DNA from: a virus
Taxonomy: Duplodnaviria; Caudoviricetes
DNA length: 53,705 nt
IMG/VR virus record: IMGVR_UViG_3300032116_014300
Span: 1-53,705 of that record
Direction: 5' to 3' (one strand)
In this document: positions 282 through 21,799 of the stretch, piece by piece
Position numbering within the stretch: the first letter of the stretch is position 1
How the letters are laid out: every line of letters starts with the position of its first letter
The notes under the pieces: model-generated
Told to the model about the DNA's origin: nothing
The model's database searches: none
The model's input: only the letters and a program-made list of their open reading frames with translations
Made by a program: the position numbers and the translations under genes

Positions 282-354
282 TGCTCCGCCTGGGGTACGA
301 TCCCAGAACCTACCGGTTAAAAGCCGGTTGCTCTACCAGTTGAGCTAACGGAGC
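282..354 (-). tRNA. tRNA-Lys(UUU), atypical T-loop AUCGUAC
   Basis: Cloverleaf GCTCCGT..GCGGAGC-A; anticodon loop CTTTTAA. Confidence 0.85.
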
Positions 355-402
355 AGGGGCCCTAATATTTTCACGAGGTCTAGGGCTAATCCTCGTGGGC
401 TG

Positions 403-486
403 TTAGTCCAGCCCGAACGCCTTCCCGATCAACGCACCCACGATCAACACCGTGATGAACAACCCACCTGCGACGACGACAGCCAT
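403..486 (-). CDS. 27 aa hydrophobic peptide (MAVVVAGGLFITVLIVGALIGKAFGLD)
   Basis: GGAGA RBS and own promoter; below the ORF-track cutoff. Confidence 0.65.
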   Translation of the reverse strand: MAVVVAGGLFITVLIVGALIGKAFGLD

Positions 487-511
487 ATCGTTCTCCGTTG
501 AAGTTATACTG

Positions 512-540
512 AATATAACAGGGGGAGCCTAACTTGTCAA
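512..540 (-). promoter_or_regulatory. sigma70-type early promoter
   Basis: TTGACA-17-TATATT. Confidence 0.8.
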
Positions 541-544
541 GGGG

Positions 545-730
545 TCACCGACGCCCTCGCCGGGGCACCCGATCAATCCGCTCAGCCGGGCTAGGCGGCT
601 CAGTAACAGAGGCTGGCTCTGGAATAGGGGTAGGGGAGGGCTTGTCCAGGAAACGAAGAGCGAGGACCGTGAGCGGGGTCGCTATCCCCACTGCGAGGAA
701 CGCCACGCCCAGTACGATAAGGTAGGTCAT
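545..730 (-). CDS. small membrane protein with Pro-rich, basic tail
   Basis: MTYLIVLGVAFLAVG.. TM segment; ATGA overlap with upstream ORF. Confidence 0.65.
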   Translation of the reverse strand: MTYLIVLGVAFLAVGIATPLTVLALRFLDKPSPTPIPEPASVTEPPSPAERIDRVPRRGRR

Positions 731-942
731 GAGTGGCTGCTCCCATCGGGTAGGACGGCAATCCACATAGAGCCGGTATTAATCATAAACTCCTTACCAT
801 TGGAGCCGAAGACGGGCTCCACGATCACCGTGTGCGTGAGCCCCCACTGGTGGGCAATCTCACATGCCCTCTCGTATTGGGGGAGTGTCATGTGGGCGGA
901 GAACCCATTGGCGAACTGGAACCGGTAGGTGAGCATGGGCAT
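727..942 (-). CDS. hypothetical protein
   Basis: 71 aa ORF in tightly packed operon. Confidence 0.65.
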   Translation of the reverse strand: MPMLTYRFQFANGFSAHMTLPQYERACEIAHQWGLTHTVIVEPVFGSNGKEFMINTGSMWIAVLPDGSSHS

Positions 943-944
943 GG

Positions 945-1112
945 TTACTTACCGAACCGAGCCTTCCACTGCTTGTTGAACTTCCGGTTCTGACTCCACA
1001 CATGGTACGACCCGATCACGAGGTAGGTCACGATCCCGGCGACGATCAGGAGCTCGACGATGGAGTTGACAGTGTACATCGTGGCGGCAGTTTCGATTGC
1101 GTTGGTCATCAT
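945..1112 (-). CDS. 55 aa single-TM protein (MMTNAIETAATMYTVNSIVELLIVAGIV...)
   Basis: GGAGA RBS, promoter 1136-1164; not in ORF track. Confidence 0.65.
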   Translation of the reverse strand: MMTNAIETAATMYTVNSIVELLIVAGIVTYLVIGSYHVWSQNRKFNKQWKARFGK

Positions 1113-1135
1113 GTTCTCCGTTTAGTGTATGGTGT

Positions 1136-1164
1136 ATTATAACCTATTACTTCGGTCGTGTCAA
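1136..1164 (-). promoter_or_regulatory. sigma70-type early promoter
   Basis: TTGACA-17-TATAAT (perfect consensus). Confidence 0.85.
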
Positions 1165-1168
1165 GGGG

Positions 1169-1390
1169 TTACTTCTGACAGAGTAGGGTTCCCGTCCACA
1201 CATACAGGTTCCCGTTCTGTTTCACATCGGGAACCGTGATCGTGTACTTGACACATCCCAGCTTGATCGCCGTGTGGGTCAGGTCGAACGTCACCTTATC
1301 CCGACCCAACTGCATGTCACGGGAAGAACGGGAGATGGTGACCGTGGTGTCGGTGACCAGCGTAACGGAGAGAAGAAGTGAAGTAATCAT
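1169..1390 (-). CDS. hypothetical protein
   Basis: 73 aa ORF directly after promoter 1397-1425. Confidence 0.6.
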   Translation of the reverse strand: MITSLLLSVTLVTDTTVTISRSSRDMQLGRDKVTFDLTHTAIKLGCVKYTITVPDVKQNGNLYVWTGTLLCQK

Positions 1391-1396
1391 AGTATA

Positions 1397-1425
1397 ATAA
1401 TACCATACCCCAAGCCCCCCGTCAA
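1397..1425 (-). promoter_or_regulatory. sigma70-type promoter with extended -10
   Basis: TTGACG-17-TATTAT, TG at -15/-14. Confidence 0.7.
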
Positions 1426-1667
1426 GTGGGGAGAACCATTGTTACAAAAGGATGGAGAATGTAACGATGTGCGGCGTGGACTTGACAGGGAGGTTTCTCG
1501 TAACTGACAGCGTGCCTATCGCAAGCGACCGGCGGTAACCTGTTCACGAATCGGGGCTATTTTTTTCTTGACAGCCGTTTTTTCTTATACGGTAATTTGC
1601 GAATTCCGTAATGCGAGTTCCTATTGCATTCCCCCGTCCTTTATAAAAAAATCCGCTACAAATTTTT

Positions 1668-4342: not shown

Positions 4343-4416
4343 CGGGATGGACGGGGATCGAACCCGCAACCTCTGGAGTGACAGTCCAGTGAGCTAACCG
4401 ATTGCGCCACCACCCC
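4343..4416 (-). tRNA. tRNA-Asp(GUC)
   Basis: Cloverleaf; loop CTGTCAC. Confidence 0.92.
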
Positions 4417-4418
4417 TA

Positions 4419-4491
4419 CACGCCGGGAGAGAATCGAACTCCCAACCCCTAGTTTTGGAGACTAGTGCTCTACCAATTGAGTTACCGACGC
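4419..4491 (-). tRNA. tRNA-Trp(CCA)
   Basis: Cloverleaf; loop CTCCAAA. Confidence 0.92.
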
Positions 4492-4496
4492 AGAAG

Positions 4497-4569
4497 CTCC
4501 CAGAGAGGGACTTGAACCCCCGACCCGGTGATTAACAGTCACCTGCTCTACCGACTGAGCTATCTGGGA
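4497..4569 (-). tRNA. tRNA-Asn(GUU)
   Basis: Cloverleaf; loop CTGTTAA. Confidence 0.95.
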
Positions 4570-4570
4570 A

Positions 4571-4646
4571 TGGTGTGCTAGGTCATACCCTTCTTTTGCC
4601 TTTAGGTCTTCCGACGTTCAGGTACCAACCGGGATGCCTAGCACAC
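4571..4646 (-). ncRNA. candidate rod-shaped small RNA
   Basis: 10-bp closing stem GTGTGCTAGG/CCTAGCACAC, apical GTC-GGAA-GAC GNRA loop, ends in CCA. Confidence 0.45.
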
Positions 4647-4665
4647 GTTATTCTTCTTCATTTCG

Positions 4666-4706
4666 TAAAAAACGATATGCGAGGTACGTTCCCCCGCACG
4701 CCGTTA
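4666..4706 (-). terminator. putative intrinsic terminator after PEP-CTERM gene
   Basis: Hairpin AACGGCGTGCGGGG/CCTCGCATATCGTT followed by T-run. Confidence 0.5.
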
Positions 4707-4739
4707 ATGCAATCACACCGAACCAGAGAAACGCACCAA

Positions 4740-5591
4740 TCATGTGAGTTTCTTTCTCCGTCCAACCATTCCCAATCCAACCAATCCCACGATCATCATA
4801 AGATAGGTGGATGGTTCTGGAACGGTCGTTGATGGAACGCCGCGATCAAAGTTGGTGTTAAGGACTTCGGTACCACCACTGGATACCTTTACGTTATCGA
4901 CGAATCCCTTGTACGCATAGGGCCATTGACTGCCCAATCCCACCCCGACACCCATCACCTGTTTGTCACCATAACACGAGACGATTTGACTAATGGTCAG
5001 TGCTTGAACCCCACCACCCCACACCGGAAGTTCGTTGGTGGAGCAGGGATTGGCACTTAAACTATATCCTTCTGCGTTACGATACCAGAAATTTCCATTA
5101 ATCATTTCAGAAGTTTGCCAACTATCGACGTAACTGAGATCGTTGTTAATAGGACGGTTGAAATAATTTTCCCATACAATTTCCGTATTATCGTCCAAGA
5201 ACACCCGAAACGCAGGTGACTTGTACTTCCAATCATAGAGCTGAATGCCGTCCTTGGTTACGTCGGCATCCCAATTCGGATTAGAACTACGGAACCAATC
5301 AAAACTCAAACTGGTTAGGTTGGATAATGCTCCCCAATTCGTATCTGCATACCGATAAGCAAATACCCAATCTTCCATCTTACCTGTCGTATGCATTTGA
5401 AGTGAACCAAATCCTACATCACCAAATCCATACCGTGGCTTAGCACCTGTAACGGTGGCATTGCCGTTACCTTGGATTTCGGTGTACCATCCAAGGTCTT
5501 TCTGTGCCAGATTGTTCTGTGATACGACTTGTGCGGCTGCGTTTGGAGCAAACAACAGAAGTCCGAGTACAATCATCATAATCTTTTTCAT
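4740..5591 (-). CDS. PEP-CTERM sorting-domain surface protein
   Basis: Signal peptide MKKIMMIVLGLLLFAPNAAA; C-terminus VPEPSTYLMMIVGLVGLGMVGRRKK; GGAGA RBS. Confidence 0.9.
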   Translation of the reverse strand: MKKIMMIVLGLLLFAPNAAAQVVSQNNLAQKDLGWYTEIQGNGNATVTGAKPRYGFGDVGFGSLQMHTTGKMEDWVFAYRYADTNWGALSNLTSLSFDWFRSSNPNWDADVTKDGIQLYDWKYKSPAFRVFLDDNTEIVWENYFNRPINNDLSYVDSWQTSEMINGNFWYRNAEGYSLSANPCSTNELPVWGGGVQALTISQIVSCYGDKQVMGVGVGLGSQWPYAYKGFVDNVKVSSGGTEVLNTNFDRGVPSTTVPEPSTYLMMIVGLVGLGMVGRRKKLT

Positions 5592-5599
5592 AAATTCTC

Positions 5600-6106
5600 C
5601 TAATCCCAAAGTCCTTCGTAATATTTGCCGAATAGACGAAACCCATTGGTAATACGTTCTTGATACTTGGTGCGACCTTCCCAATCACATTCCCCTTCGG
5701 TTTTCCATTTAAATTGATATGCTTCCAATCCATCGACAACCTTTTCTGGCGTCACTGGATCATTCCAATCAATTTCTGGTTTGGTCTTCCAGAACTGTTC
5801 TTCCCAATCGGTGAGCTTACTTTCAAATGCGAAAATCATCTCATCTAATACATACTCCCACCGTTTGAAATGATTCTCATCTACGTCATATTCACCGACC
5901 AACTGCTCCGTACGAAGTTCTTCGGGAACATCTTCCATATCAACGTTGGGAGCACCATGTTGGGTTTCCTTCAACTGCTTTAACATCGGAGTGATAATGT
6001 GGGCAAGAGTATTATCCATACTCCACGTATCCCACGGATCAATCTGGATTTTAACTTTCCGTTCACGATCCGACTTCTTTGGATACTTCCCGATAAAGAC
6101 TTTCAT
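5600..6106 (-). CDS. phage hypothetical protein
   Basis: 168 aa, Trp-rich, ends GFRLFGKYYEGLWD. Confidence 0.8.
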   Translation of the reverse strand: MKVFIGKYPKKSDRERKVKIQIDPWDTWSMDNTLAHIITPMLKQLKETQHGAPNVDMEDVPEELRTEQLVGEYDVDENHFKRWEYVLDEMIFAFESKLTDWEEQFWKTKPEIDWNDPVTPEKVVDGLEAYQFKWKTEGECDWEGRTKYQERITNGFRLFGKYYEGLWD

Positions 6107-7357: not shown

Positions 7358-7431
7358 TCCGCGTTCTAGGAGTTGAACCTAGTGCCTTCTGTGTATCAGA
7401 CAGACGTGCAAACCACTTACACTTAACGCGG
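7358..7431 (-). tRNA. tRNA-Ile(GAU)
   Basis: Cloverleaf; loop CTGATAC. Confidence 0.88.
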
Positions 7432-7434
7432 ATA

Positions 7435-7517
7435 TGGGGGTGGAAGGATTCGAACCTACTCAGCCAATGGCAGCAGATTTACAGTCTGTCGTAACTCTCC
7501 AACTTTACCGCACCCCC
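7435..7517 (-). tRNA. tRNA-Tyr(GUA)
   Basis: Loop CTGTAAA; long variable arm. Confidence 0.9.
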
Positions 7518-7520
7518 AAA

Positions 7521-7600
7521 TGCACTCAGAGGGACTTGAACCCCCACGGTTTCCCGCACGCTCCTAAGGCGTGTGCGTCTGCCAATTCCGCCATGAGTGC
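7521..7600 (-). tRNA. tRNA-Leu(UAG)
   Basis: Loop CTTAGGA; variable arm. Confidence 0.93.
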
Positions 7601-7604
7601 GTAG

Positions 7605-7679
7605 GGTGAGAGACGGGAATCGAACCCGCAACCCCCGGAACCACAATCCGGTGCTCTAACCGATTGAGCTACAATCACC
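7605..7679 (-). tRNA. tRNA-His(GUG)
   Basis: G-1:C73, loop TTGTGGT; two acceptor-stem mismatches. Confidence 0.88.
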
Positions 7680-7686
7680 ATAGAAA

Positions 7687-7771
7687 CGGACAGTGAGGGA
7701 TTCGAACTCTCGGAACCTTTCGGCTCGGTGCTTTTCAAGAGCACTGCAATAGACCACTCTGCCAACTGTCC
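7687..7771 (-). tRNA. tRNA-Ser(UGA)
   Basis: Loop CTTGAAA; long variable arm; G73. Confidence 0.93.
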
Positions 7772-7775
7772 TAGA

Positions 7776-7847
7776 TGCCCTGAGAAGGATTCGAACCCTC
7801 ACTAACGGTTCCGAAGACCGCTGTGCTCTCCATTACACCATCTGGGC
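7776..7847 (-). tRNA. tRNA-Arg(UCG)
   Basis: Loop CTTCGGA; A20 present. Confidence 0.85.
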
Positions 7848-7852
7848 GTTAA

Positions 7853-7927
7853 TAGGGGAAGAGGGATTCGAACCCCCGACCTCCTGCTCCCAAAGCAGGC
7901 GCGATAACCGGACTACGCTATTCCCCT
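7853..7927 (-). tRNA. tRNA-Pro(UGG)
   Basis: Loop TTTGGGA; A1-U72. Confidence 0.92.
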
Positions 7928-7932
7928 AAAAG

Positions 7933-8016
7933 AGCTCCCGGTGGGATTCGAACCCACAGCGTTTCTTAAGTGCTGGTTTACAAAACCAGTGCAATCAGCC
8001 ATTATGCGACAGGAGC
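7933..8016 (-). tRNA. tRNA-Thr(UGU) with 15-nt variable region
   Basis: Loop TTTGTAA; variable CACTTAAGAAACGCT. Confidence 0.85.
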
Positions 8017-8078
8017 ATAGGATATCAGCAACGTTATGGATTCTCGCACATCCCTGATATCCAAGCGAGATAAATAAA

Positions 8079-8265
8079 ACACAGCGGGAAAGATGTTGTC
8101 CTGAAATATACTGGCATGTGTAGATATCCATCAATGCCCGTCCGATAGATAACTACGCCTCCCCATCGTCGTTATTCATTCTCAAATATATAAGCGGGTT
8201 TATATATTTTTCACCGAATGTCTTTCCATACGACCACTAACCGAGTAAGACTCGTCCTGCTATGT
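8079..8265 (-). ncRNA. candidate structured ncRNA (~187 nt)
   Basis: Ends pair (ACATAGCAGGA/TCCCGCTGTGT); three internal arms. Confidence 0.5.
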
Positions 8266-8266
8266 T

Positions 8267-8650
8267 TTACCAATCGTAACCAAATTCTTTTAATCCAAAC
8301 TTATCATCAAACGTTTTATAATCTTGTGTAATCTCGTCACCAATATGTATGTCTCGTGACGCAATTGCAGTATTACCATCTTCCGTAAAGATACAATTTG
8401 GGTTATCGGAATGATTAATATATTTTTCGTTATCAATACAAATAATATATTCTCCGTTTTCTACCCAACCATATCGTTTGAAAATATCTTGACATACTGA
8501 CGGAAGTGCTTCTACAACAGCCGGCGATATTTTTTGATCTATCCCATCGTGCCATTGCCATACAACACCACCCATAGGAACAAACTCTTCACTAAAAACT
8601 CCTAATCCGTGTATCGGACTCGGTGCTAGTTTATTTTTAATCATTAACAT
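8267..8650 (-). CDS. SET-domain protein (lysine methyltransferase-like)
   Basis: SPIHGLGVF, YINHSDNPNC, RDIHIGDEITQDY. Confidence 0.92.
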   Translation of the reverse strand: MLMIKNKLAPSPIHGLGVFSEEFVPMGGVVWQWHDGIDQKISPAVVEALPSVCQDIFKRYGWVENGEYIICIDNEKYINHSDNPNCIFTEDGNTAIASRDIHIGDEITQDYKTFDDKFGLKEFGYDW

Positions 8651-8662
8651 ACAACCTCCATA

Positions 8663-8734
8663 AGCGTGTGGTGGGAGTCGAACCCACGTCTCTAGCTTGG
8701 AAGGCTAGGATAATAGCCGTTATATGACACACGC
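8663..8734 (-). tRNA. tRNA-Gly(UCC)
   Basis: Loop CTTCCAA; U73. Confidence 0.92.
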
Positions 8735-8739
8735 AACAA

Positions 8740-8814
8740 TGGTCCTTGAGGGACTTGAACCCCCGAATCGGCTGATTATGAGTCAGCTGCTTTGACCAAC
8801 TTAGCTAAAGGACC
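8740..8814 (-). tRNA. tRNA(CAU), probably Ile2 (lysidine type); elongator Met not excluded
   Basis: Loop CTCATAA; GGTCCTT acceptor resembles Ile2; no initiator features. Confidence 0.85.
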
Positions 8815-9251
8815 GAATTATAAGAATTGATTTGTTTTAATGTTGCATATTTCCTTCGCAGTTCAACATTACGAGAATCTGTTTTTGGAAATTTTTTGCT
8901 ACCACCTTTATATGTTTCGGTTTGACTGTGACAATTTGGACATAATAACCTAAGATTTTCTGGATAGTTATTGTCTGGATTTCCGTCAACGTGATCAACT
9001 TGAAGTGTTATAGGTTGATTATTCCAATTTGATAATTTACAAACGACACATTCGTATCCAAAATCTTCTATCAAAAACTTTCTAATAGCAGGACGATGTT
9101 TTAATTTACCTTGAACATATAATTCTCTATTAGTTTTTTTATTACTTACCACACGAGCATCTGCCGAACATTTTAAACTACAATATTTTCCAGTTTGTTG
9201 TGAAGGTGAGTATGTAAAATCAACACCACAATACATGCAATTACTTTTCAT
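8805..9251 (-). CDS. HNH homing endonuclease
   Basis: CxxC zinc motifs; LQVDHVDGNPDNNYPENLRLLCPNCH. Confidence 0.92.
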   Translation of the reverse strand: MKSNCMYCGVDFTYSPSQQTGKYCSLKCSADARVVSNKKTNRELYVQGKLKHRPAIRKFLIEDFGYECVVCKLSNWNNQPITLQVDHVDGNPDNNYPENLRLLCPNCHSQTETYKGGSKKFPKTDSRNVELRRKYATLKQINSYNSVL

Positions 9252-9310: not shown

Positions 9311-9385
9311 TCCGCCCCACTGGACTTGAACCAGTATATCTTTCGTGTATAAGACGAATGCTGTCACCAATTTAGCTAGAGGCGG
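9311..9385 (-). tRNA. tRNA-Ile(UAU)
   Basis: Stem TTCGT/ACGAA, loop CTTATAC. Confidence 0.88.
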
Positions 9386-9392
9386 GTATTCA

Positions 9393-9466
9393 TGCTTCCA
9401 CTAGGATTCGAACCTAGACCTAAAAGATTAAAAGTCTCTTGTGCTAACCGTTGACACTATGGAAGC
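9393..9466 (-). tRNA. tRNA-Lys(UUU)
   Basis: Loop CTTTTAA; canonical T-loop. Confidence 0.9.
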
Positions 9467-9476
9467 AGTACATCAG

Positions 9477-9559
9477 TGCTCCGAGCCGGAATCGAACCGG
9501 CAAGCTTATTAGGCGGAAGATTTTAAGTCTTCTGTGTTTACCGATTTCACCATCGGAGC
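9477..9559 (-). tRNA. tRNA-Leu(UAA)
   Basis: Loop CTTAAAA; variable arm. Confidence 0.93.
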
Positions 9560-9564
9560 AAATA

Positions 9565-9638
9565 TGGGTAGTGACGGATTCGAACCGCCGACCCTCTGCG
9601 TGTAAAGCAGATGCTCTAACCAGCTGAGCTAACCACCC
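9565..9638 (-). tRNA. tRNA-Val(UAC)
   Basis: Loop TTTACAC. Confidence 0.95.
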
Positions 9639-9641
9639 TCA

Positions 9642-9714
9642 TGGACCTAGACGGGATCGAACCGACGACCTTTCGCTTGCAAAGCGGACGCTCTCCCAGC
9701 TGAGCTATAGGCCC
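9642..9714 (-). tRNA. tRNA-Ala(UGC)
   Basis: G3:U70; loop TTTGCAA. Confidence 0.95.
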
Positions 9715-9732
9715 AACTTCATTTCTATTACA

Positions 9733-9803
9733 TAGGCCCAGGTGGTACTGCCCCACCGACTCTTGATCCAAAGTCAAGCGTATTACTATTATACTATGGG
9801 CCA
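9733..9803 (-). tRNA. tRNA-Gln(UUG), non-canonical D/T loops
   Basis: Loop CTTTGGA; T-arm GGTGG-GGCAGTA-CCACC. Confidence 0.75.
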
Positions 9804-9805
9804 AT

Positions 9806-9873
9806 AGCAGGGGGAGGTTATTCAGATGTTTACCAGACACCCAAGGAAACCGACATTCTAGACTGTCCCCCGC
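9806..9873 (-). ncRNA. candidate degenerate tRNA-like RNA lacking a T-arm
   Basis: GCGGGGG/CCCCTGC closing stem; GGTGT-CTGGTAA-ACATC arm. Confidence 0.35.
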
Positions 9874-9987
9874 AACCTTTTGCAACAATCCAATCATGTT
9901 GCCGATATATATCACTTAACACTGGATATACTCAGCGATAGAGTTTTCGGTTTAACGTCAACTACTCTATGAAACTGACGGGATAAG

Positions 9988-10059
9988 TACGGCGTGCGGG
10001 AATCGAACCCGCCTTCTAGCCTTGAAAGGGCTATGTCCTGACCGATAGACGAACGCCGC
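9988..10059 (-). tRNA. tRNA-Glu(UUC)
   Basis: Loop CTTTCAA. Confidence 0.93.
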
Positions 10060-10167
10060 ATAGTGGGGTTGATAACTCCTCTGGTTATGTAACCCACTCT
10101 GGTTACCAACCCCGTGCTTCTTTCATATTTCACTTGTCAAACAACGTATCGTTCACTCAACTCTTGT

Positions 10168-10196
10168 AATATAACCCCGTATACATCGTTTGTCAA
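10168..10196 (-). promoter_or_regulatory. sigma70-type promoter of main tRNA array
   Basis: TTGACA-17-TATATT. Confidence 0.8.
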
Positions 10197-10207
10197 GGGG
10201 TCAGTTT

Positions 10208-11723: not shown

Positions 11724-11766
11724 GTGAAAATCTCCTATAAAGTGTTGTGTTGTTGATTACCTATAT

Positions 11767-11795
11767 AATATAACCTACTTACCACCGTTTGTCAA
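11767..11795 (-). promoter_or_regulatory. sigma70-type promoter
   Basis: TTGACA-17-TATATT. Confidence 0.8.
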
Positions 11796-13993
11796 GTACC
11801 CCGAGTTAATAACAATTTATTAAGGGTACGGAGTACTTCAGTTGCGTTTTCTACCGAGCAAAATACGGCATCTTCCCCGTACATTTTCTTAAATACTTCT
11901 TTTCCAATATTAGACCGATATTGTGAATAATTCCCGCCCATATCTTCGGAAATAAAGTAACTCAGTACCTTGACACCCTTTTCCTTAATTTGGTTGACCA
12001 TCGCACGAGTATGCTTGTGAGCAGTTTCACCGCCGTAATCAAACCAATCACGATCCGACTTATCCTTCACCGGCATACTCTTCTTATCGTAGGCAAATGA
12101 CGGTTCCCCATCGCTGAAGTTGATGAAGTATACATCGTGTGTATCGGCACATTCTGTAATCAGATCCAACGTTGCCTTGAAGCACAGACCCTCTGGGGTT
12201 CCACCTGCGGGTTCCAGAATACGCATGAACTTGAGACACTTATTGAAATGATCCACACGAGAATCGTATACGACATGAACAACGGGAATTTCTGATCCGC
12301 CACGAATACTGATTACTGCATCGACGTTGCGCATCTTGCTAGCAACATATCCGATTGCTACGGCGATAGTACGAACCTTCTGCCACTTTTTCCCACCCAT
12401 AGAGCCAGACGCATCAATCGTCAAGTGCAGCATGGCTGGACGATGTTGATCCACGCGAGACTTCTGGAATACCGACGTAATGTCCATACCCAACTGTGCG
12501 AGAAGCCGACGATCCAATCCACCCTGCGGGAGCCGTGTCTGTTTAGTCAGAAGTGGATCATTGCGTACTTGGAGACGATGAACAAGAATCTGACCGATAC
12601 GCTTACCTGCGGCAATTGCCTGCTCAGTGTACGGAGACGTACGTCCACTATCCCAACCATACCGTGAGAAAATAAACCAATCCTGCTTGAACAGTGATTC
12701 GTTCATCTTACGAGTCACCATGCACCGACCAAACGGAACACCGTGACCGGCAATATCCACGAGGTCTGCCTTGGACTCTTCGAATGCGTCAATTGCTGCA
12801 AGTTCTGCCTTGGTCACCTTCTTCTTAGAAAGTTCCCCGTTCATCATCTTTTTCAATTCTTTCTTTTCGTTCTTTGCACGAGTTTCGTTATACTTGACAG
12901 GATTCTTGCGAGGTGACGGTTCCACACCAGTGGGCGTCATCTCAGAAGGAGACGATGGTGCACCGTCAAGGTTCGGAAGTGATTCCAACAACGGATTGAG
13001 ATTGGGCGTAGACTGCTTACTCTCGCCCGTAGACTGACCATCCCCTTCACCATCCGGTGTACCATTCACTTCTTCTTTCTTATCTTGTTCAGCAAGTGCA
13101 ACGAATCTCAGAATGTGAGCAAAGATCTTGTTTGCTTCTTGCCACAAAATCGGCATATCAATAAACGAACAACTAGTCTTCCAAGCAGGCATGTTTTCCA
13201 GCACTCGTGGATCGTTCTCAGGCGCGACCCGATCAATATTCTGAATGTCAACGAGCTTCAACAAGGCCTCAAGACCAGGCATCGCATCAGGTTGTGCCGC
13301 CGGGTGAAACGCATAGAGCATGCGATCCAAATAATTCTCAATGGTAATCTCACGCCACTTCGGATTGAACTTGAGATTCTTCCCAACTTCAGCGGTAAAG
13401 AAATACTTATCGTACAGAGCACGATAGTAGGGACGATACCCACCTGCGTTCCGATACACATACTGGTCAATCCTACGATCTTCCAGAATATTCATGATAT
13501 CCCAGATATATCCAATCATCTGAGCAGCTGCTTCACCACGTTCCACAAATTTGGATGCAGTGGGAAGTGTCGCGGCAAGTTCGGGCATGAACATGTACTC
13601 GTATACGTCGGGCTTGAACGTATTTCCCATCCAATGTTGTGGGACGTACCCATTATACTTTTTGTACTTTCCAAGAATTTCCAAGAATTCAAAATTGGAA
13701 AGGAGAATATGGGAACCCTCGTGGAGCGCAAGTCCAACCATCGCATCAAACTTAGCGGGATTATCGTCGGCGGAAATAACCACTTCCTTGCCGTCCGTAT
13801 ATGAACTCTTCCCACTGGAAAACTTGACGGGAATATTCTTTCCGCTCATAATACTCACAAAGTTTCCGATAGCTCGACGGGCGGTCGCAAGACGGGCAAG
13901 TCGGAGAACTTGGGACTCTTCCTTACTGTCCAACTCGTCGTCAACCAGCAGATCATCGTCCAACCAATAATTTGAGTATTGTTCGGTTTTCAT
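11792..13993 (-). CDS. vWA (MIDAS) protein with N-terminal HEXXH metallopeptidase-like domain (CobT-like)
   Basis: LHEGSH, NILEDRRID, IDASGSM, GGTP, SDGEP. Confidence 0.9.
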   Translation of the reverse strand: MKTEQYSNYWLDDDLLVDDELDSKEESQVLRLARLATARRAIGNFVSIMSGKNIPVKFSSGKSSYTDGKEVVISADDNPAKFDAMVGLALHEGSHILLSNFEFLEILGKYKKYNGYVPQHWMGNTFKPDVYEYMFMPELAATLPTASKFVERGEAAAQMIGYIWDIMNILEDRRIDQYVYRNAGGYRPYYRALYDKYFFTAEVGKNLKFNPKWREITIENYLDRMLYAFHPAAQPDAMPGLEALLKLVDIQNIDRVAPENDPRVLENMPAWKTSCSFIDMPILWQEANKIFAHILRFVALAEQDKKEEVNGTPDGEGDGQSTGESKQSTPNLNPLLESLPNLDGAPSSPSEMTPTGVEPSPRKNPVKYNETRAKNEKKELKKMMNGELSKKKVTKAELAAIDAFEESKADLVDIAGHGVPFGRCMVTRKMNESLFKQDWFIFSRYGWDSGRTSPYTEQAIAAGKRIGQILVHRLQVRNDPLLTKQTRLPQGGLDRRLLAQLGMDITSVFQKSRVDQHRPAMLHLTIDASGSMGGKKWQKVRTIAVAIGYVASKMRNVDAVISIRGGSEIPVVHVVYDSRVDHFNKCLKFMRILEPAGGTPEGLCFKATLDLITECADTHDVYFINFSDGEPSFAYDKKSMPVKDKSDRDWFDYGGETAHKHTRAMVNQIKEKGVKVLSYFISEDMGGNYSQYRSNIGKEVFKKMYGEDAVFCSVENATEVLRTLNKLLLTRGT

Positions 13994-14319: not shown

Positions 14320-14393
14320 CCTCCCCGGAGAGATTCGAACTCCCGACCGTTCGCTTAGAAGGCGAATGCTCTATCCAACTGAGCTACGAGGAG
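14320..14393 (-). tRNA. tRNA-Arg(UCU)
   Basis: Loop CTTCTAA; A20. Confidence 0.95.
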
Positions 14394-14397
14394 AAAA

Positions 14398-14482
14398 CGG
14401 AAGGGGTGGGATTCGAACCCACGATAGGTTTCCCTATTCTTGTTTAGTAGACAAGTGCTATTAGCCGCTCTGCCACCCTTCC
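14398..14482 (-). tRNA. tRNA-Ser(ACU)
   Basis: Ser-type body (GGAAGGG, long arm ATAGG-GAAA-CCTAT, G73); CTTGT-CTACTAA-ACAAG. Confidence 0.88.
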
Positions 14483-14489
14483 AACAAAA

Positions 14490-14563
14490 TGCTTCCGGTG
14501 GGAGTCGAACCCACAAGACCAGGATTTTGAGTCCCGTACGTATGCCAGTTCCGTCACAGAAGC
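14490..14563 (-). tRNA. tRNA-Leu(CAA) with short variable loop
   Basis: Loop CTCAAAA; variable GTCTT. Confidence 0.88.
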
Positions 14564-14680
14564 AAACCATTACATTAGATCATTCTTGTGTCTTGATCGG
14601 CATGTTGAGCATCAAGACCATTTACCTATCACGCATGTATGCCCATGCAATAAAGGGAGACACATATCGTATCTCCCCTT

Positions 14681-14708
14681 AATATAACAATTATTCTATG
14701 TTTGTCAA
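14681..14708 (-). promoter_or_regulatory. sigma70-type promoter of second tRNA cluster
   Basis: TTGACA-16-TATATT. Confidence 0.7.
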
Positions 14709-16278: not shown

Positions 16279-16908
16279 TTACTGTTTTCGTAAATTATTG
16301 ACACTATCTACAGTAACTAGATGTTCCGTTATACTTTTACTTTTCTCTGGAACATTCTTAAAACTATATGCGCGAATTTCTCCTGTCTGTTGGATACGAA
16401 TGATTTTCCAGCAATAGGTTGGGACTGATACGTTTTTGATTTTTTTCAGTTCTCCCACACATCCTGCTTCCACATAAATAGAATCTAGAGAACGGGATAA
16501 TTCTCGGGTATGATCTTCTAAGGCTTTCCATTGACCCCGATTTAAACCTGGATATTGTGGAACCATATTCGTATAAAAAAAGGATTCATCCATCACGGAT
16601 TTTCCTAAACAAATATTATCACCTGCTGGACTAAGATGTCCCCTATCAAATCCTGACCCAATATAGTCGGTACTCAGATCCGTGTTGGTTAATAATGGAT
16701 CGGCTAGAAATTTATCACTACGTTTGGCGGGAAGTTTGCATGTTAATTTTTCTTTTGTCACCCACCATTGAACAAGCACAGGATACTTTTTACTCTGAGA
16801 AAAAACTGTTTCATAATTGGTATGTTTGACTCGGATCGTATCTTGTGCTTGTAATGGAAGACACCAAAAGAAAATTATTCCGACGACGAAGTTCCGCAAT
16901 TTACACAT
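16279..16908 (-). CDS. DNA/RNA non-specific endonuclease (NucA/EndoG family) with signal peptide
   Basis: GSGFDRGHLSPAGD, TNMVPQ, LNRGQWKALE. Confidence 0.92.
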   Translation of the reverse strand: MCKLRNFVVGIIFFWCLPLQAQDTIRVKHTNYETVFSQSKKYPVLVQWWVTKEKLTCKLPAKRSDKFLADPLLTNTDLSTDYIGSGFDRGHLSPAGDNICLGKSVMDESFFYTNMVPQYPGLNRGQWKALEDHTRELSRSLDSIYVEAGCVGELKKIKNVSVPTYCWKIIRIQQTGEIRAYSFKNVPEKSKSITEHLVTVDSVNNLRKQ

Positions 16909-19199: not shown

Positions 19200-19211
19200 A
19201 CCATTCTCGGT

Positions 19212-19865
19212 TTAGATGGTAATAACCTCATTAATATCTAAGATACGAATATTTCCATCAATAACACTGCGGTGCATATGACCACAAATGAAATTTCTGG
19301 GACGTATGGTGTGATAGACTTTAGACATTCGTTGAGCCGATATATCTTCCCACTCATCAGGTAACCCCCAATACTTTGTGTTTAACGGACCAAAATGTGC
19401 GGTGATAGTGAACTTGGGTGGAACATGGGCAATTAAGAAATCCAACTGTCGGTAATTCACATTCTCAACTATTACCTCTGTGTCCTTAGCGGTAATCTGT
19501 TCTTGTTTCCACCACGAGACGTTTTCTTTTCGGTATGCTTTGTCAATACTCTCTCCACCACCAAGGAATCCAAAAAGTTTTTCTTCAATTTCCATGACAG
19601 TTCCACGAGGGATGTAAAATAAGTTACCAACCACATTGTGAATTCCTTCTCCAAATGTGGAAATATAATTAAAGTCTTCGTGGTTTCCGTCTATTGCAAG
19701 AATGCGACATGGATAGTTTTCAAAGAGGTCTGTCCATAGTCGGATATTCTCTGGATAAAACCCGAAGTCACCGACTTGGACAACTGTGTCGTCGGGAGTT
19801 ACATGTTTTTTTAATGTTTCAAGCCGCATGAACTCCCCATGTAAATCACCGACTACATAAATCAT
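19212..19865 (-). CDS. calcineurin-like metallophosphoesterase
   Basis: GDLHG, GDFG, GNHE, GHMH. Confidence 0.92.
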   Translation of the reverse strand: MIYVVGDLHGEFMRLETLKKHVTPDDTVVQVGDFGFYPENIRLWTDLFENYPCRILAIDGNHEDFNYISTFGEGIHNVVGNLFYIPRGTVMEIEEKLFGFLGGGESIDKAYRKENVSWWKQEQITAKDTEVIVENVNYRQLDFLIAHVPPKFTITAHFGPLNTKYWGLPDEWEDISAQRMSKVYHTIRPRNFICGHMHRSVIDGNIRILDINEVITI

Positions 19866-19878
19866 ACGAACCTCTTAT

Positions 19879-20253
19879 TTATTTTTTGATAACAGTCTTG
19901 GTGACCGCGTTGACACCCATTGCACTTAATGCAACAGTCAAACCGGCCACGGTGGTTTCTAGTGCAGAAATATCGGGATTAATCAACAACCCAGTCTTTA
20001 CACTGACCCACGTTGCTGCTTGTGCGAAGGCGACTGCGACCAACGCCTTGACTGGACCAGGTAGTGCGGCAACCTGTGTTGACGCCTTCTTTGCTAAATC
20101 CACAGCAAACTTGGTGATCACGGATAATCCTAATGCAACGAGTGTTGTAACTTGAGTTCCTACTTGGGTTCCAACTGTAGTCGCCAAACTATCGGCGGCA
20201 ACTTGGATGGTATCTACGGCAGATGTTGCAACTACGAGTGTGTCTTGTATCAT
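19879..20253 (-). CDS. membrane protein (holin-like)
   Basis: Ala/Val/Thr-rich with ~3 TM; GGAG RBS. Confidence 0.7.
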   Translation of the reverse strand: MIQDTLVVATSAVDTIQVAADSLATTVGTQVGTQVTTLVALGLSVITKFAVDLAKKASTQVAALPGPVKALVAVAFAQAATWVSVKTGLLINPDISALETTVAGLTVALSAMGVNAVTKTVIKK

Positions 20254-20264
20254 ATAATACTCCG

Positions 20265-20528
20265 TTAAGGGTTAGTAGACTTTGTGACCACTTCGTACAG
20301 ATTTTCATACTCCTCGTGAAGCTGTACTTCTTCACTAAAATTCTGCTTATGATAGGTTTTGGCAAGTTTGGAAAACACCTTTTTATTTAAATCCAACTCC
20401 TTACAAATATCATTCTTGACATTTTTTTGTAAATCCTTTTCCGCTTCCATTCTGGACATAGACGTACTGATATCCTTCAATGCGCCTAACAACTTGATCT
20501 TATCATTTGGTCCTAACGTGTTTAACAT
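20265..20528 (-). CDS. T4 DsbA-like dsDNA-binding protein
   Basis: 87 aa helical; ELDLNKKVFSKLAKTYHKQN. Confidence 0.65.
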   Translation of the reverse strand: MLNTLGPNDKIKLLGALKDISTSMSRMEAEKDLQKNVKNDICKELDLNKKVFSKLAKTYHKQNFSEEVQLHEEYENLYEVVTKSTNP

Positions 20529-20541
20529 AATAACCTCTTAT

Positions 20542-20934
20542 TTAAAGTTTGACTATCGTTGCCGCCGCATGAAACATTCCGGCGGCTTTCTCCAACTCCA
20601 CCAACTTTGACTTATCGTCCATTACATCTTTGTACAACATTTCTATTTCATGTGCGTAATATAGTTTATTGGTATAATCTACCAATTGATCTTGTGGTAA
20701 TACCCCGTCCAATACTCTGGACATGTTTATTGCAAAGTGTTTCATTCGTTCACATGCCCCGTGCGGGACTTCATTATTTTTAAATTTTATGACTACTTCG
20801 TCCAACGTCAACGCAACTTCTGTTAAAAAAAGACATGCTTTGCTCCTTTTTAACTCATTTAAATTTTTTGCTGATTGAATAGCGGTGAGAATTCCAGACG
20901 CTACTCCCACGATGAGCGATATCGTCTCCAACAT
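20542..20934 (-). CDS. hypothetical helical protein
   Basis: ORF track; ATG start MLETIS chosen. Confidence 0.65.
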   Translation of the reverse strand: MLETISLIVGVASGILTAIQSAKNLNELKRSKACLFLTEVALTLDEVVIKFKNNEVPHGACERMKHFAINMSRVLDGVLPQDQLVDYTNKLYYAHEIEMLYKDVMDDKSKLVELEKAAGMFHAAATIVKL

Positions 20935-21074
20935 ATTTTCACCCACACTAAAATTTTAACGAAACTGGATGAACCTTTCCACTGTTTAATTTCTCCCGTT
21001 GAACGTCTGCATCCTGTACAATATCCGTTACTGTTCAATTTACAAATTTTAAGACATGGTGATTTTATATCCAT
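20901..21074 (-). CDS. DUF1289-like small Cys-cluster protein
   Basis: SPCLKICKLNSNGYCTGCRRSTGEIKQW; not in ORF track. Confidence 0.75.
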   Translation of the reverse strand: MDIKSPCLKICKLNSNGYCTGCRRSTGEIKQWKGSSSFVKILVWVKICWRRYRSSWE

Positions 21075-21343
21075 CGTGCAATTCCAATGAGATCAATTAA
21101 CAACCATGTTAAATTGACAATAACCATTGGACGATCATGCTTCAACCAAAAACTATGTAACATGCCACCGTGACCAAAAAAGAAAAACGTATAGGGGATG
21201 AACGGAGGAATATACGGAATACGACCCGCTAACATCACCCCTCCTATAATTAACAAGAAAACTGCCCACCATTTCCGTTTGACAATAATATGTTCTTCGG
21301 TTTCTGTTAAGATTTTTGGCACATCAGATAAAATATATTTCAC
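21065..21343 (-). CDS. small three-TM membrane protein
   Basis: Hydrophobic segments. Confidence 0.7.
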   Translation of the reverse strand: MKYILSDVPKILTETEEHIIVKRKWWAVFLLIIGGVMLAGRIPYIPPFIPYTFFFFGHGGMLHSFWLKHDRPMVIVNLTWLLIDLIGIARWI

Positions 21344-21696
21344 TTATAATTTCTCCACCCAACAGGTAAAATACAATTCATTGGCGCAGTTCTAAACATG
21401 GGAGCAATGTCCGCTTCATCATATCCACCAAGACCACATCCAATCTGCGTAACTTGAAATGTGATGTCTGGGTTTAATTCTGCATATCGAAGCATCTTAT
21501 CCACGTAGGATTTTATTTTATTTAACGGTAAAAATTTAAAATTTTCGTCTTTGACGGGAATAGCAAAACTACTACCTTGTAATCCATATCCCTCGCCATA
21601 AACTGCACCATGATCTTCGTAGGCACGTAATGCAGTACCCGTCGTGTGCCTACCTTCTACATTACTTGAAAATACAAATACTCTTTTATTCTGCAT
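21340..21696 (-). CDS. phage macro-like domain protein (A1S_2505-type)
   Basis: VFVFSSNVEGRH, GLQGSSFAIP, FQVTQIGCGLGG. Confidence 0.75.
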   Translation of the reverse strand: MQNKRVFVFSSNVEGRHTTGTALRAYEDHGAVYGEGYGLQGSSFAIPVKDENFKFLPLNKIKSYVDKMLRYAELNPDITFQVTQIGCGLGGYDEADIAPMFRTAPMNCILPVGWRNYK

Positions 21697-21716
21697 AAGT
21701 GTCTCCTATATAACAG

Positions 21717-21799
21717 AGAACGGAGCCGGATTCGAACCGGCGTGGGATTACTCCTAGAGTTTTGCAGACTCCTGCTTTCAGCCACTCAGCCATCCGTTC
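21717..21799 (-). tRNA. tRNA-Cys(GCA) with long variable arm
   Basis: Loop CTGCAAA; U73; variable arm GGA-GTAA-TCC. Confidence 0.88.

What the first reader, a model, noticed from the sequence alone, without database searches (positions are those of the whole stretch)
282..21799. Phage tRNA set with many non-canonical members, interleaved with unassigned structured RNAs
Seen: 25 tRNA genes, none encoding CCA. Many deviate from bacterial norms: Ser(ACU), Ile(UAU), long-variable Cys and Thr, short-variable Leu(CAA), altered T-loops in Gln and Lys, A1-U72 in Pro. At least four non-tRNA structured elements sit among them, and a tmRNA lies at 26346. Inference: a translation-takeover or anti-defence RNA system that decodes AU-ending codons and may evade host anticodon nucleases or modification dependence. 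This is my best candidate for an undescribed system in the window.
Basis: partly seen in the sequence, partly recalled or inferred. Interest (0 to 1): 0.85.

Follow-up and report, generated by a model that had tools for sequence, protein, structure and literature searches.

The report
Jumbo-phage tRNA island with new RNAs
This is the transfer-RNA gene island of an uncultured freshwater giant phage, whose oddly built tRNAs are conserved and recur in many other viruses, and which also holds at least two conserved folded RNAs that match no known RNA family.

Summary
There are 25 tRNA genes, all on the minus strand (282-21799). None is followed by an encoded CCA. A tmRNA lies at 26346-26686.

The window is a whole IMG/VR record, estimated at about 24% of a jumbo myovirus genome.

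The main oddities are not decay. Ser(ACU), 7/5 long-variable-arm Cys(GCA) and Ile(UAU) are kept in related phage arrays, with compensatory stem changes. Long-arm Thr(UGU) and short-arm Leu(CAA) occur as alternative alleles at the same array positions.

They keep the sequence identity elements of the expected synthetases. Ser(ACU) is already annotated in cultured E. coli phage 121Q and occurs in Patescibacteria MAGs. Codon usage fits (AGT 200 against AGC 31; ATA is 32% of Ile).

Two oddities are specific to the window and may be decay: the Gln loops and two mismatches in the His acceptor stem.

Four non-tRNA elements sit between the tRNAs. Two are strongly supported structured RNAs:
- RNA#1 (8075-8269): 9 helices including a pseudoknot, 19 of 57 pairs with changes on both sides.
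- RNA#2 (9804-9987): 23 of 35 pairs with changes on both sides.

Neither matches Rfam or any GenBank phage record. Contigs from RNA libraries cover both.

Overall this is a known kind of thing, a phage tRNA island like that of T4 with rnaC/rnaD or islands holding ROOL/GOLLD. It carries new RNA families and under-described tRNA architectures. The anti-defence reading is untested.

The parts
282..354 (-). tRNA-Lys(UUU) with T-loop AUCGUAC (A54...U58)
   Evidence: A similar T-loop (AUCGUUA) occurs in L024 Lys(UUU).
512..540 (-). Sigma-70-like promoter upstream of a small ORF and tRNA-Lys
   Evidence: 11 of 12 consensus matches, with TG extension. A consensus match only.
4343..4569 (-). tRNA cluster Asn(GUU) 4497-4569, Trp(CCA) 4419-4491, Asp(GUC) 4343-4416
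4573..4646 (-). RNA#4: long hairpin with a conserved core, directly upstream of tRNA-Asn
   Evidence: Fold z-score -4.2 for 4570-4739. 89% identical copy in L395, and the core is shared with L086. Only 3 real homologues, so support is weak.
7358..8016 (-). Eight-tRNA cluster, in 5'-to-3' order on the minus strand: Thr(UGU, long arm) 7933-8016, Pro(UGG, A1-U72) 7853-7927, Arg(UCG) 7776-7847, Ser(UGA) 7687-7771, His(GUG) 7605-7678, Leu(UAG) 7521-7600, Tyr(GUA) 7435-7517, Ile(GAU) 7358-7431
8075..8269 (-). RNA#1: conserved structured RNA with a closing helix, 9 helices and a pseudoknot. The window copy has a divergent 3' domain.
   Evidence: Alignment A6 of 14 distinct copies: 96.5% of cells paired, 19 of 57 pairs with changes on both sides, 0 of 500 shuffles reach this. 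No Rfam match. RNA-library contigs cover it.
8267..8650 (-). SET-domain ORF inside the tRNA island
   Evidence: PF00856, E 2.8e-09.
8663..8814 (-). tRNA with anticodon CAU (Met or Ile2) 8740-8814 and tRNA-Gly(UCC) with a short D arm 8663-8734
8805..9251 (-). HNH endonuclease ORF inside the tRNA island
   Evidence: HNH_3, E 2.2e-06. T4 has the homing endonuclease segB in the same kind of place.
9311..9803 (-). tRNA cluster Gln(UUG, odd T and D loops) 9733-9803, Ala(UGC) 9642-9714, Val(UAC) 9565-9638, Leu(UAA) 9477-9559, Lys(UUU) 9393-9466, Ile(UAU) 9311-9385
9804..9987 (-). RNA#2: conserved structured RNA filling the Glu-Gln spacer
   Evidence: Alignment A7 of 8 sequences: 35 pairs, 23 with changes on both sides, 0 of 500 shuffles reach this. 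Found in 18 rows of held loci by nhmmer. A contig of RNA run X2 covers 9789-9973.
9988..10059 (-). tRNA-Glu(UUC)
10065..10113 (-). Long hairpin between the promoter and tRNA-Glu
   Evidence: Fold z-score -3.7 for 10060-10207. Kept in L005 with one-sided changes only.
10168..10196 (-). Sigma-70-like promoter heading the Glu...Ile(GAU) run of tRNAs
   Evidence: 11 of 12 consensus matches. Conserved in L005. A consensus match only.
14320..14563 (-). tRNA cluster Leu(CAA, short arm) 14490-14563, Ser(ACU) 14398-14482, Arg(UCU) 14320-14393
14564..14649 (-). RNA#3: conserved two-hairpin leader directly upstream of the first tRNA of the cluster
   Evidence: Alignment A8 of 7 sequences: 16 pairs, 5 with changes on both sides. 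Eight rows by nhmmer.
14681..14708 (-). Sigma-70-like promoter of the Leu(CAA)-Ser(ACU)-Arg(UCU) unit
   Evidence: 11 of 12 consensus matches, with TG extension. Nearly identical in L001.
21717..21799 (-). tRNA-Cys(GCA): 7/5 cloverleaf, long variable arm, U73
26346..26686 (+). tmRNA, tag GNYNLALAA
   Evidence: 128 bits, cut-off 47.

Best explanation
This region is the tRNA island of an uncultured freshwater jumbo myovirus.

At least three transcription units with sigma-70-like promoters hold 25 tRNA genes. By anticodon these cover 19 amino acids. Phe is missing from this genome fragment. None encodes CCA, so the host or a phage CCA-adding enzyme must finish them.

The set is tuned to the phage's A/U-ending codons. 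It has U34 tRNAs for most codon boxes, a Ser(ACU) that would read AGU, and an Ile(UAU) for AUA. This gives the phage its own decoding capacity during infection.

The non-standard architectures are working alleles that circulate among phages and keep the identity elements of their cognate synthetases. These are A34 Ser, class II (long-arm) Cys and Thr, and class I (short-arm) Leu(CAA).

Between the tRNAs lie conserved structured RNAs. They are co-transcribed with the tRNAs and are probably cut out by the tRNA-processing enzymes as stable RNAs, as in T4 (rnaC/rnaD) or ROOL/GOLLD. Their function is unknown. My best guess is a role in tRNA processing or in translation.

Shown here: the genes, their conservation, the covariation, and the codon match.
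Inferred: charging identity, processing, and function.
For: What the contig is:
- The window is a whole virus record, about 24% complete.
- It has baseplate PHROG hits.
- The relatives are large viral contigs.

The tRNA genes:
- 25 tRNAs above the Rfam cut-off.
- 0 of 25 are followed by CCA.
- Promoter-like sites with 11 of 12 consensus matches lie at 14708-14681, 10196-10168 and 540-512.

Codon match (36 ORFs, 11819 codons):
- AGT 200 against AGC 31.
- ATA 263 of 823 Ile codons.
- A-ending codons dominate: GAA 78%, CAA 71%, AAA 65%, GCA 55%.
- In E. coli an orthogonal tRNA with anticodon ACU read AGU, while AGC and AGA stayed below detection (PMC11066159, passages).

Conservation in related arrays:
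- Ser(ACU) in 5 of 5 relatives that were not found through it (L001, L005, L009, L024, L254), with compensatory stem changes and G73.
- Long-arm Cys with U73 in 5 of 5 relatives that hold a Cys gene and were not found through it (L001, L005, L009, L032, L086).
- Ile(UAU) in 7 of 7 arrays.
- Thr(UGU): long arm in 3 of 7 arrays.
- Leu(CAA): short arm in 4 of 8 arrays.

- Ser(ACU): 65 of 80.
- Long-arm Cys: 59 of 80, and 57 of those 59 have U73.
- Long-arm Thr(UGU): 67 of 80, all 67 beginning GC.
- Short-arm Leu(CAA): 47 of 80, and 42 of those 47 have A73.
- Cultured E. coli phage 121Q is annotated with tRNA-Ser(act).

Structured RNAs:
- RNA#1 and RNA#2 show strong covariation.
- G-U pairs fit the tRNA strand.
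- Contigs from RNA libraries of three studies cover RNA#1, and one covers RNA#2.

Precedents:
- T4's tRNA cluster holds rnaC, rnaD and segB.
- ROOL and GOLLD lie 'often near tRNA islands'.
Against: - No aminoacylation, modification or end-mapping data exist.
- The RNA-library data are assembled contigs. They cannot show RNA ends or strand, and they could include carried-over DNA (tool note).
- The host is unknown, so 'compensates for the host tRNA pool' is not tested.
- Window-specific defects may mean that some genes are decaying. Gln has an odd T-loop and a D-loop without GG, unlike 4 of 4 relatives. His has two acceptor-stem mismatches.
- The window's copy of RNA#1 lacks the canonical helices 8 and 9. 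It scores 127 bits, against 170-204 bits for the other full-length copies.
- RNA#3 and RNA#4 rest on few sequences and could be ordinary processing or terminator hairpins.
- In viral loci pulled in through other patterns, Ser(ACU) is rare: 2 against 85 Ser(GCU). So it marks certain lineages and is not a general phage rule.
Confidence: 0.6

Rival explanations
1. Anti-defence set. The non-standard features exist mainly so that the phage tRNAs escape host tRNA-cleaving defence nucleases, or replace host tRNAs that these nucleases destroy. The features meant are the class-switched variable arms, A34, the altered T-loops and the second Lys(UUU).
For: - Phage tRNAs that evade or neutralise tRNA-targeting defences are documented (PMC10264068, PMC11555353 and PMC11464382; listing and abstract starts only).
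- The island is nearly a full set.
- It has two Lys(UUU) genes, one with a T-loop variant conserved in L024.
- Alternative class I and class II alleles swap at the same array positions between close relatives, as expected under diversifying selection.
Against: - No host, defence system or cleavage was examined.
- The anticodon loops, the usual target, look ordinary.
- The features that deviate lie mostly outside the anticodon loop.
- The codon-usage match explains the choice of anticodons without any role in defence.
Confidence: 0.2
2. Recoding or deliberate mistranslation. The long-arm Cys(GCA) or Thr(UGU) tRNAs are charged by SerRS or another class II-recognising enzyme, or the short-arm Leu(CAA) is charged with something other than Leu. 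This would change what UGY, ACA or UUG codons mean during infection.
For: - Mukai et al. argue that a long variable arm plus G73 or U73 suggests serine identity in allo-tRNAs (PMC5389517, passages).
- The nearest GenBank-phage match of the window's Cys gene is a tRNA-Ser.
Against: - The Cys variable arm has only a 3-bp stem followed by 3 unpaired bases. That is the geometry of the relatives' Tyr gene, not of their Ser genes, which have a 5-bp stem and 1 unpaired base.
- U73 plus GCA are the CysRS determinants (Krahn et al., PMC7609411, passage), and 57 of 59 viral long-arm Cys have U73.
- 67 of 67 long-arm Thr(UGU) begin GC. I recall G1-C72 and C2-G71 as the ThrRS acceptor determinants.
- 42 of 47 short-arm Leu(CAA) keep A73 and a Leu-type D arm.
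Confidence: 0.08
3. Decay or artefact. The odd tRNAs are pseudogenes or assembly errors, and the 'structured elements' are chance folds in spacers.
For: - The window's Gln T- and D-loops and the two mismatches in its His acceptor stem are not shared by relatives.
- Spacers 355-544 and 9804-9987, folded alone, are not more stable than shuffled sequence: z -0.03 and -0.97.
Against: - The main oddities are conserved with compensatory changes across relatives that are 75-94% identical in marker proteins.
- They recur in dozens of unrelated contigs.
- RNA#1 and RNA#2 exceed all 500 shuffles and all slid controls.
Confidence: 0.05

Closest known systems
T4 tRNA gene cluster with rnaC (species 1) and rnaD (species 2) small stable RNAs and the segB homing endonuclease
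   Same: A minus-strand run of tightly spaced tRNA genes, with small stable RNAs of unknown function and a homing-type endonuclease ORF embedded in it (T4 record NC_000866). The window has an HNH ORF at 8805-9251 and RNA#1 to RNA#4.
   Different: T4 has 8 tRNAs, against 25 here. There is no sequence similarity between the A6 or A7 profiles and the T4 region, and A8 gave only a spurious hit inside a protein-coding gene (nhmmer). RNA#1 and RNA#2 are longer (about 190-280 nt) and pseudoknotted. T4's Ile gene has anticodon CAT, not TAT.
ROOL and GOLLD RNAs (large ornate phage and prophage RNAs near tRNA islands)
   Same: Structured RNAs of unknown function, encoded in phages and often near tRNA islands (bioRxiv 10.1101/2024.12.08.627333, passages). 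Like them, RNA#1 has many helices and a pseudoknot.
   Different: No Rfam match to either family at E <= 1 over 1-27000, or at E <= 10 on an RNA#1 copy. RNA#1 and RNA#2 are much smaller (about 200 nt, against about 580 to over 800 nt from recall). No evidence of multimer formation.
Phage tRNA arrays of jumbo and huge phages, and the codon-compensation and anti-defence hypotheses
   Same: A large set of tRNAs plus a tmRNA in a big phage genome. The anticodons match phage-preferred codons. Anti-defence roles for phage tRNAs are published (abstract starts).
   Different: This lineage combines A34 Ser, class II Cys and Thr, and class I Leu(CAA). The anticodon-loop mutations stressed by the title of PMC10264068 are not evident here.
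selC* tRNA-Cys and allo-tRNAs (Mukai et al. 2017)
   Same: [quoted passage not shown] For selC* tRNA-Cys, the combination of U73 and a GCA anticodon (PMC5389517 and PMC7609411, passages).
   Different: Those have 8/4 or 9/3 acceptor/T-stem structures resembling tRNA-Sec. The window's Cys and Thr are ordinary 7/5 cloverleaves with a Tyr-like short variable stem.
Unmodified A34 tRNAs (Mycoplasma Thr(AGU); engineered ACU tRNA in E. coli)
   Same: An A at the wobble position outside Arg(ACG). The engineered ACU tRNA read AGU selectively (PMC11066159, passages).
   Different: [quoted passage not shown] Here Ser(ACU) is natural and recurrent: 65 of 80 viral loci examined, 32 of 80 cellular loci examined, and phage 121Q. 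Whether A34 is modified here is unknown.

Membership tests
tRNA (Rfam RF00005) | Score at or above the curated gathering cut-off (29 bits) | tested here: met
   25 of 25 score 42.9-69.5 bits.
tmRNA (Rfam RF00023) | Gathering cut-off of 47 bits and a tag reading frame | tested here: met
   128 bits over the full model (1-374). ARAGORN gives tag GNYNLALAA.
Class II (long-variable-arm) tRNA | Variable region of 10 or more nucleotides (Krahn et al., passage) | tested here: met
   Cys has 14 nt with a 3-bp stem. Thr(UGU) has 15 nt. Leu(CAA) has 5 nt and so fails this test, being class I in form.
tRNA-Cys identity | U73 discriminator and GCA anticodon (Krahn et al., passage) | tested here: met
   U73 and GCA are present in the window and in all 8 clade copies, and U73 in 57 of 59 viral long-arm copies. 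The tertiary G15:G48 element (recalled) was not examined. Charging was not tested.
tRNA-Ser identity | Long variable arm and G73 (Krahn et al., passage) | tested here: met
   Ser(ACU) has a 5-bp variable stem and G73 in the window and in relatives. Charging was not tested.
tRNA-Thr identity | G1-C72, C2-G71 and anticodon positions G35 and U36 (recalled from E. coli work) | tested here: met
   The window's Thr begins GC, ends GC before the discriminator and has anticodon UGU. 67 of 67 viral long-arm Thr(UGU) begin GC. Charging was not tested.
tRNA-Leu identity | A73 and a Leu-type D arm. The long variable arm is typical but, as I recall, not required by E. coli LeuRS. | tested here: inconclusive
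   A73 and a 3-bp D stem with an 11-nt loop are present. The long arm is absent. 42 of 47 viral short-arm Leu(CAA) have A73.
allo-tRNA / selC* tRNA-Cys | 8/4 or 9/3 acceptor/T-stem configuration | tested here: not met
   The Cys and Thr genes fold as 7/5.
GOLLD / ROOL / other Rfam RNA families (for RNA#1 to RNA#4) | A match to the family covariance model | tested here: not met
   No match in the spacers at E <= 1 over 1-27000. At E <= 10 on L254:9020-9290, the only matches were artefacts of the flanking tRNA.
RNase P RNA (considered for RNA#1) | A match to the RNase P models, with the conserved P4 and CR-I/CR-V sequences | tested here: not met
   No RNase P family hit at E <= 10. Only a loose likeness in topology: a closing helix, a hairpin, a GGAAAG stretch forming a long-range helix, and a GACAACA stretch before its 3' strand.
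T4 rnaC / rnaD | Sequence similarity, and a position inside a phage tRNA cluster | tested here: inconclusive
   The position criterion is met. Sequence similarity is not met (nhmmer).

The most novel reading that the evidence does not exclude
RNA#1 is a new functional RNA class of phage tRNA islands. It is a pseudoknotted RNA of about 200-280 nt with long invariant single-stranded stretches. It may be a ribozyme or a tRNA-binding RNA that acts on the phage's own CCA-less tRNA precursors. RNA#2 may be a second such class. Separately, the class-switched tRNAs (7/5 long-arm Cys and Thr, short-arm Leu, A34 Ser) may be a general viral strategy to insulate phage translation from host tRNA-targeting enzymes.
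Probability: 0.15. Interest if true: 0.85.

Novelty: new variant of a known kind. Interest (0 to 1): 0.6.

Why it matters
Textbook bacterial tRNAs with long variable arms are Ser, Leu and Tyr, and A34 is confined to Arg(ACG).

This island, and the scans it prompted, show that phages widely carry other forms:
- ordinary 7/5 cloverleaf Cys and Thr tRNAs with long arms,
- Leu tRNAs with short arms,
- an A34 Ser tRNA.

All keep the identity elements of their cognate synthetases. In the review and papers I could read, these viral forms are not treated. If the tRNAs are charged as predicted, they are natural experiments on what synthetases, EF-Tu and the ribosome tolerate. They are also candidate parts for orthogonal translation.

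Ser(ACU) occurs in a cultured E. coli phage (121Q), so this part can be tested directly.

The two covariation-supported RNAs add to a small set of enigmatic RNAs tied to phage tRNA islands (T4 rnaC/rnaD, ROOL, GOLLD), none of which has a known function.

Tried and rejected
Considered and dropped:
- Host inference. The distant relative Microcystis phage Mel-JY01 has only 1 tRNA. The Ser genes of Synechococcus phages S-WAM2 and S-CAM7 are TGA. No host was established. The runs that hold the sequence are labelled freshwater metagenome.
- RNA#1 as RNase P RNA, T-box or hammerhead. I noticed a GGAAAG/ACA-type likeness, a GGGUGGU stretch and a CUGAUGA stretch. The last is not conserved across copies. 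No Rfam model matches. All three ideas were dropped.
- Contig ends as RNA ends. RNA contigs of three studies all end at 8247. This lies at the edge of the invariant block shared by strain variants, so I read it as an assembly-graph break and not an RNA end.
- Parts without cover. In runs X2 and X4 no contig lay on the neighbouring SET and HNH ORFs.
- Spacer 355-544. No special fold (z -0.03). It holds a promoter and a small ORF.
- Flank conservation. The flanks of the 14.3-14.6 kb cluster are better conserved than its tRNAs between the window and L001. Overall identity is 87%, so only the leader is unusually conserved. I dropped 'accelerated tRNA evolution' as a claim of its own.

Searches that found nothing:
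- One search was badly posed and wasted.
- One search found nothing relevant for Ser-ACU or Ser-ACT.
- One search found 0 papers with 'Ser ACT', phage and tRNA together.
- One search found 7 papers for tRNACys, long variable arm and phage. In the two I opened I saw no 7/5 long-arm viral Cys.
- These searches cover only the held library.
- The supplementary tables of Fremin et al. 2023 (PMC10690425) could not be seen. They may already list RNA#1, RNA#2 or the odd Cys tRNAs among their 10,006 candidates.

Full report
What the window is. The 53,705-base window is a complete IMG/VR virus record with no end repeats, estimated at about 24% of a genome. It has baseplate-wedge PHROG matches and a CobS-like AAA protein (10560-11723). 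A 733-aa neighbouring protein has only two distant GenBank-phage matches: an uncultured 484-kb phage and Microcystis phage Mel-JY01. I read it as a fragment of an uncultured jumbo myovirus. All six RNA runs that hold parts of it are labelled freshwater metagenome. The host is unknown.

Checking the observation.
- ARAGORN finds 24 tRNAs and a tmRNA.
- Rfam finds 25 tRNAs above the cut-off and the tmRNA. The extra one is Gln(UUG) at 9733-9803.
- All tRNAs are on the minus strand, and 0 of 25 are followed by CCA.
- By anticodon they cover 19 amino acids. Phe is absent from this fragment but present in relatives L009, L086 and L254.
- 15 have U34, 6 have G34, 3 have C34 and 1 has A34 (my count).

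Are the oddities real? I found relatives through two proteins. L001 is 94% identical in the 733-aa protein and about 87% in DNA. L005, L009 and L024 are 81, 78 and 75% identical in the CobS-like protein. Later scans added L032, L086, L254 and L196.
- Ser(ACU), class II with G73, is in 5 of 5 relatives that were not found through it. It has compensatory changes in the acceptor, anticodon and variable stems. None of these loci holds a Ser(GCU).
- Cys(GCA) with a 3-bp variable stem and U73 is in 5 of 5 such relatives that hold a Cys gene.
- Ile(UAU) is in 7 of 7 arrays.
- Thr(UGU) is long-armed in the window, L009 and L086. It is ordinary in L005, L024, L032 and L254, at the same place next to Pro.
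- Leu(CAA) is short-armed in the window, L005, L024 and L086, and long-armed in L001, L009, L032 and L254. The window and its nearest relative L001 differ at the same position while sharing an identical acceptor stem.
- Pro has A1-U72 in 3 of 7 arrays.
- The Lys T-loop variant recurs in L024.
- The Gln loops and the two His acceptor-stem mismatches are found in the window only.

So the main features are inherited and functional-looking, and some behave as exchangeable alleles. Two features may be decay.

How far do they reach? I scanned IMG/VR with anticodon-loop plus T-arm patterns.
- 65 of 80 hold an ARAGORN tRNA-Ser(act). With the clade copies these make 70 sequences in 44 clusters at 85% identity.
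- 59 of 80 hold a Cys(gca) of 80-90 nt, and 57 of the 59 have U73.
- 67 of 80 hold a long-arm Thr(tgt), all 67 beginning GC.
- 47 of 80 hold a short-arm Leu(caa), and 42 of the 47 have A73.

In loci pulled in through the other patterns, the frequencies are more sober:
- Ser(act) 2 against Ser(gct) 85.
- Long-arm Cys 2 of 43.
- Long-arm Thr(tgt) 9 of 58.
- Short-arm Leu(caa) 14 of 38.

The same Ser(ACU) pattern in cellular genomes gave 32 of 80 loci with tRNA-Ser(act). Many are in Patescibacteria MAGs, and 15 of the 32 have a Ser(gct) in the same 8-kb locus. Cultured E. coli phage 121Q is annotated with tRNA-Ser(act). So these are recurrent natural tRNA types, not peculiarities of this contig.

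How they probably work.
- Codon usage of 36 ORFs shows AGT 200 against AGC 31. This is the strongest U-over-C bias of any NNY pair.
- ATA is 32% of Ile.
- A-ending codons dominate.
- An engineered ACU tRNA in E. coli read AGU, with AGC and AGA below detection (PMC11066159, passages).
- The long-arm Cys and Thr share a short variable stem followed by three unpaired bases, as in the relatives' Tyr gene. The Ser genes have a 5-bp stem and one unpaired base.
- The long-arm Cys and Thr also carry the Cys and Thr identity elements.

I infer cognate charging and ordinary decoding, tuned to the phage's codons. Charging has not been shown.

The interleaved RNAs.

RNA#1 (8075-8269, minus strand). An alignment with four relatives showed an invariant block and a hairpin with four different compensating versions.
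- The block occurs in 14 IMG/VR stretches.
- The full element is in 9 of the 118 metagenome stretches that matched a 16-mer. Most of the rest look like chance matches.
- Fourteen distinct copies align into 9 helices, including a long-range pseudoknot whose end pair is G-C in 8 copies and A-U in 6.
- 96.5% of cells pair, and 19 of 57 pairs change on both sides. 0 of 500 shuffles reach this, and slid controls give at most 5.
- It has no Rfam match and no GenBank-phage match.
- A profile search of all 507 held loci found only the motif-seeded copies.
- It always sits between tRNAs.
- The window's copy is divergent in its 3' half.

RNA#2 (9804-9987) fills the Glu-Gln spacer.
- Eight sequences give 35 pairs, 23 of them changed on both sides. 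0 of 500 shuffles reach this, and slid controls give at most 10.
- It is present in 18 rows of held loci.
- It has no GenBank-phage match.

RNA#3 (14564-14649) is a two-hairpin leader behind a promoter. Seven sequences give 5 of 16 pairs changed on both sides.

RNA#4 (4573-4646) has only three homologues.

Contigs from RNA libraries of three studies lie on RNA#1 with 0-2 differences, and one lies on RNA#2. This shows presence in those libraries, not RNA ends or expression level.

Comparison with what is known.
- T4's tRNA cluster holds two small stable RNAs of unknown function and a homing endonuclease.
- ROOL and GOLLD are phage RNAs 'often near tRNA islands'.
- Anti-defence roles of phage tRNAs are published.
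- The 2020 review of non-canonical tRNAs has no occurrence of 'phage' or 'virus'. It names only Ser, Leu and Tyr as class II, and describes the 8/4 selC* tRNA-Cys.
- Mukai et al. describe 8/4 and 9/3 forms.
- Fremin et al. noted viral candidate RNAs that overlap ARAGORN tRNA-Cys calls.

My searches found no paper on viral Ser(ACU) or on 7/5 long-arm Cys.

Verdict. The kind is known, but the tRNA architectures are under-described and at least two RNA families appear to be new.

Noticed in passing
window 4740-5684 (-): A 314-aa ORF ending in a PEP-CTERM sorting motif (PF07589, E 1.9e-07). This is unusual in a phage and hints at a host with an exosortase system.
   Followed up: no
window 10560-13993 (-): A CobS-like AAA/CbbQ_C protein lies next to a 733-aa protein with no Pfam match. 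The pair sits between two tRNA clusters and is conserved in relatives.
   Followed up: partly
L014 7542-7907, L016 6125-6417, L017 7783-8073: More distant relatives (57-62% identical in the CobS-like protein) carry ARAGORN 'tmRNA*' (permuted) genes a few kb upstream of the CobS-like gene. Their tags end in MAMAA.
   Followed up: no
L024 10798-10871 and L086 3857 onward: A second, very different tRNA-His(GUG) type with a 6-bp acceptor call and a G/C-rich D arm replaces the ordinary His gene in two relatives.
   Followed up: no
window 355-544 (-): Behind a strong promoter-like site lies a short ORF for a hydrophobic peptide of about 27 residues, just upstream of tRNA-Lys.
   Followed up: no
Genome-contig loci L261, L274, L276, L278, L289, L301, L315, L324 and others: In Patescibacteria (CPR) MAGs a canonical-looking tRNA-Ser(ACU) sits beside tRNA-Ser(GCU) inside ordinary Ser/Arg tRNA clusters. 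This suggests a regular extra isoacceptor in that group.
   Followed up: partly
viral loci (counts): Leu(UAG) and Leu(UAA) genes shorter than 80 nt are common in these viral loci: 41 of 84 and 22 of 81. So short-arm Leu tRNAs are not confined to the CAA anticodon.
   Followed up: no
RNA#1 copies L086, L388, L395, L413, L505: An inserted sub-domain with a conserved hairpin (loop region ...UAGGGUUCACCCUA...) is present in some RNA#1 copies and absent in others, including the window.
   Followed up: no
window 16279-16908 (-) and 8267-8650 (-): A DNA/RNA non-specific endonuclease (PF01223, E 5e-38) lies close to the tRNA island, and a SET-domain protein lies inside it.
   Followed up: no
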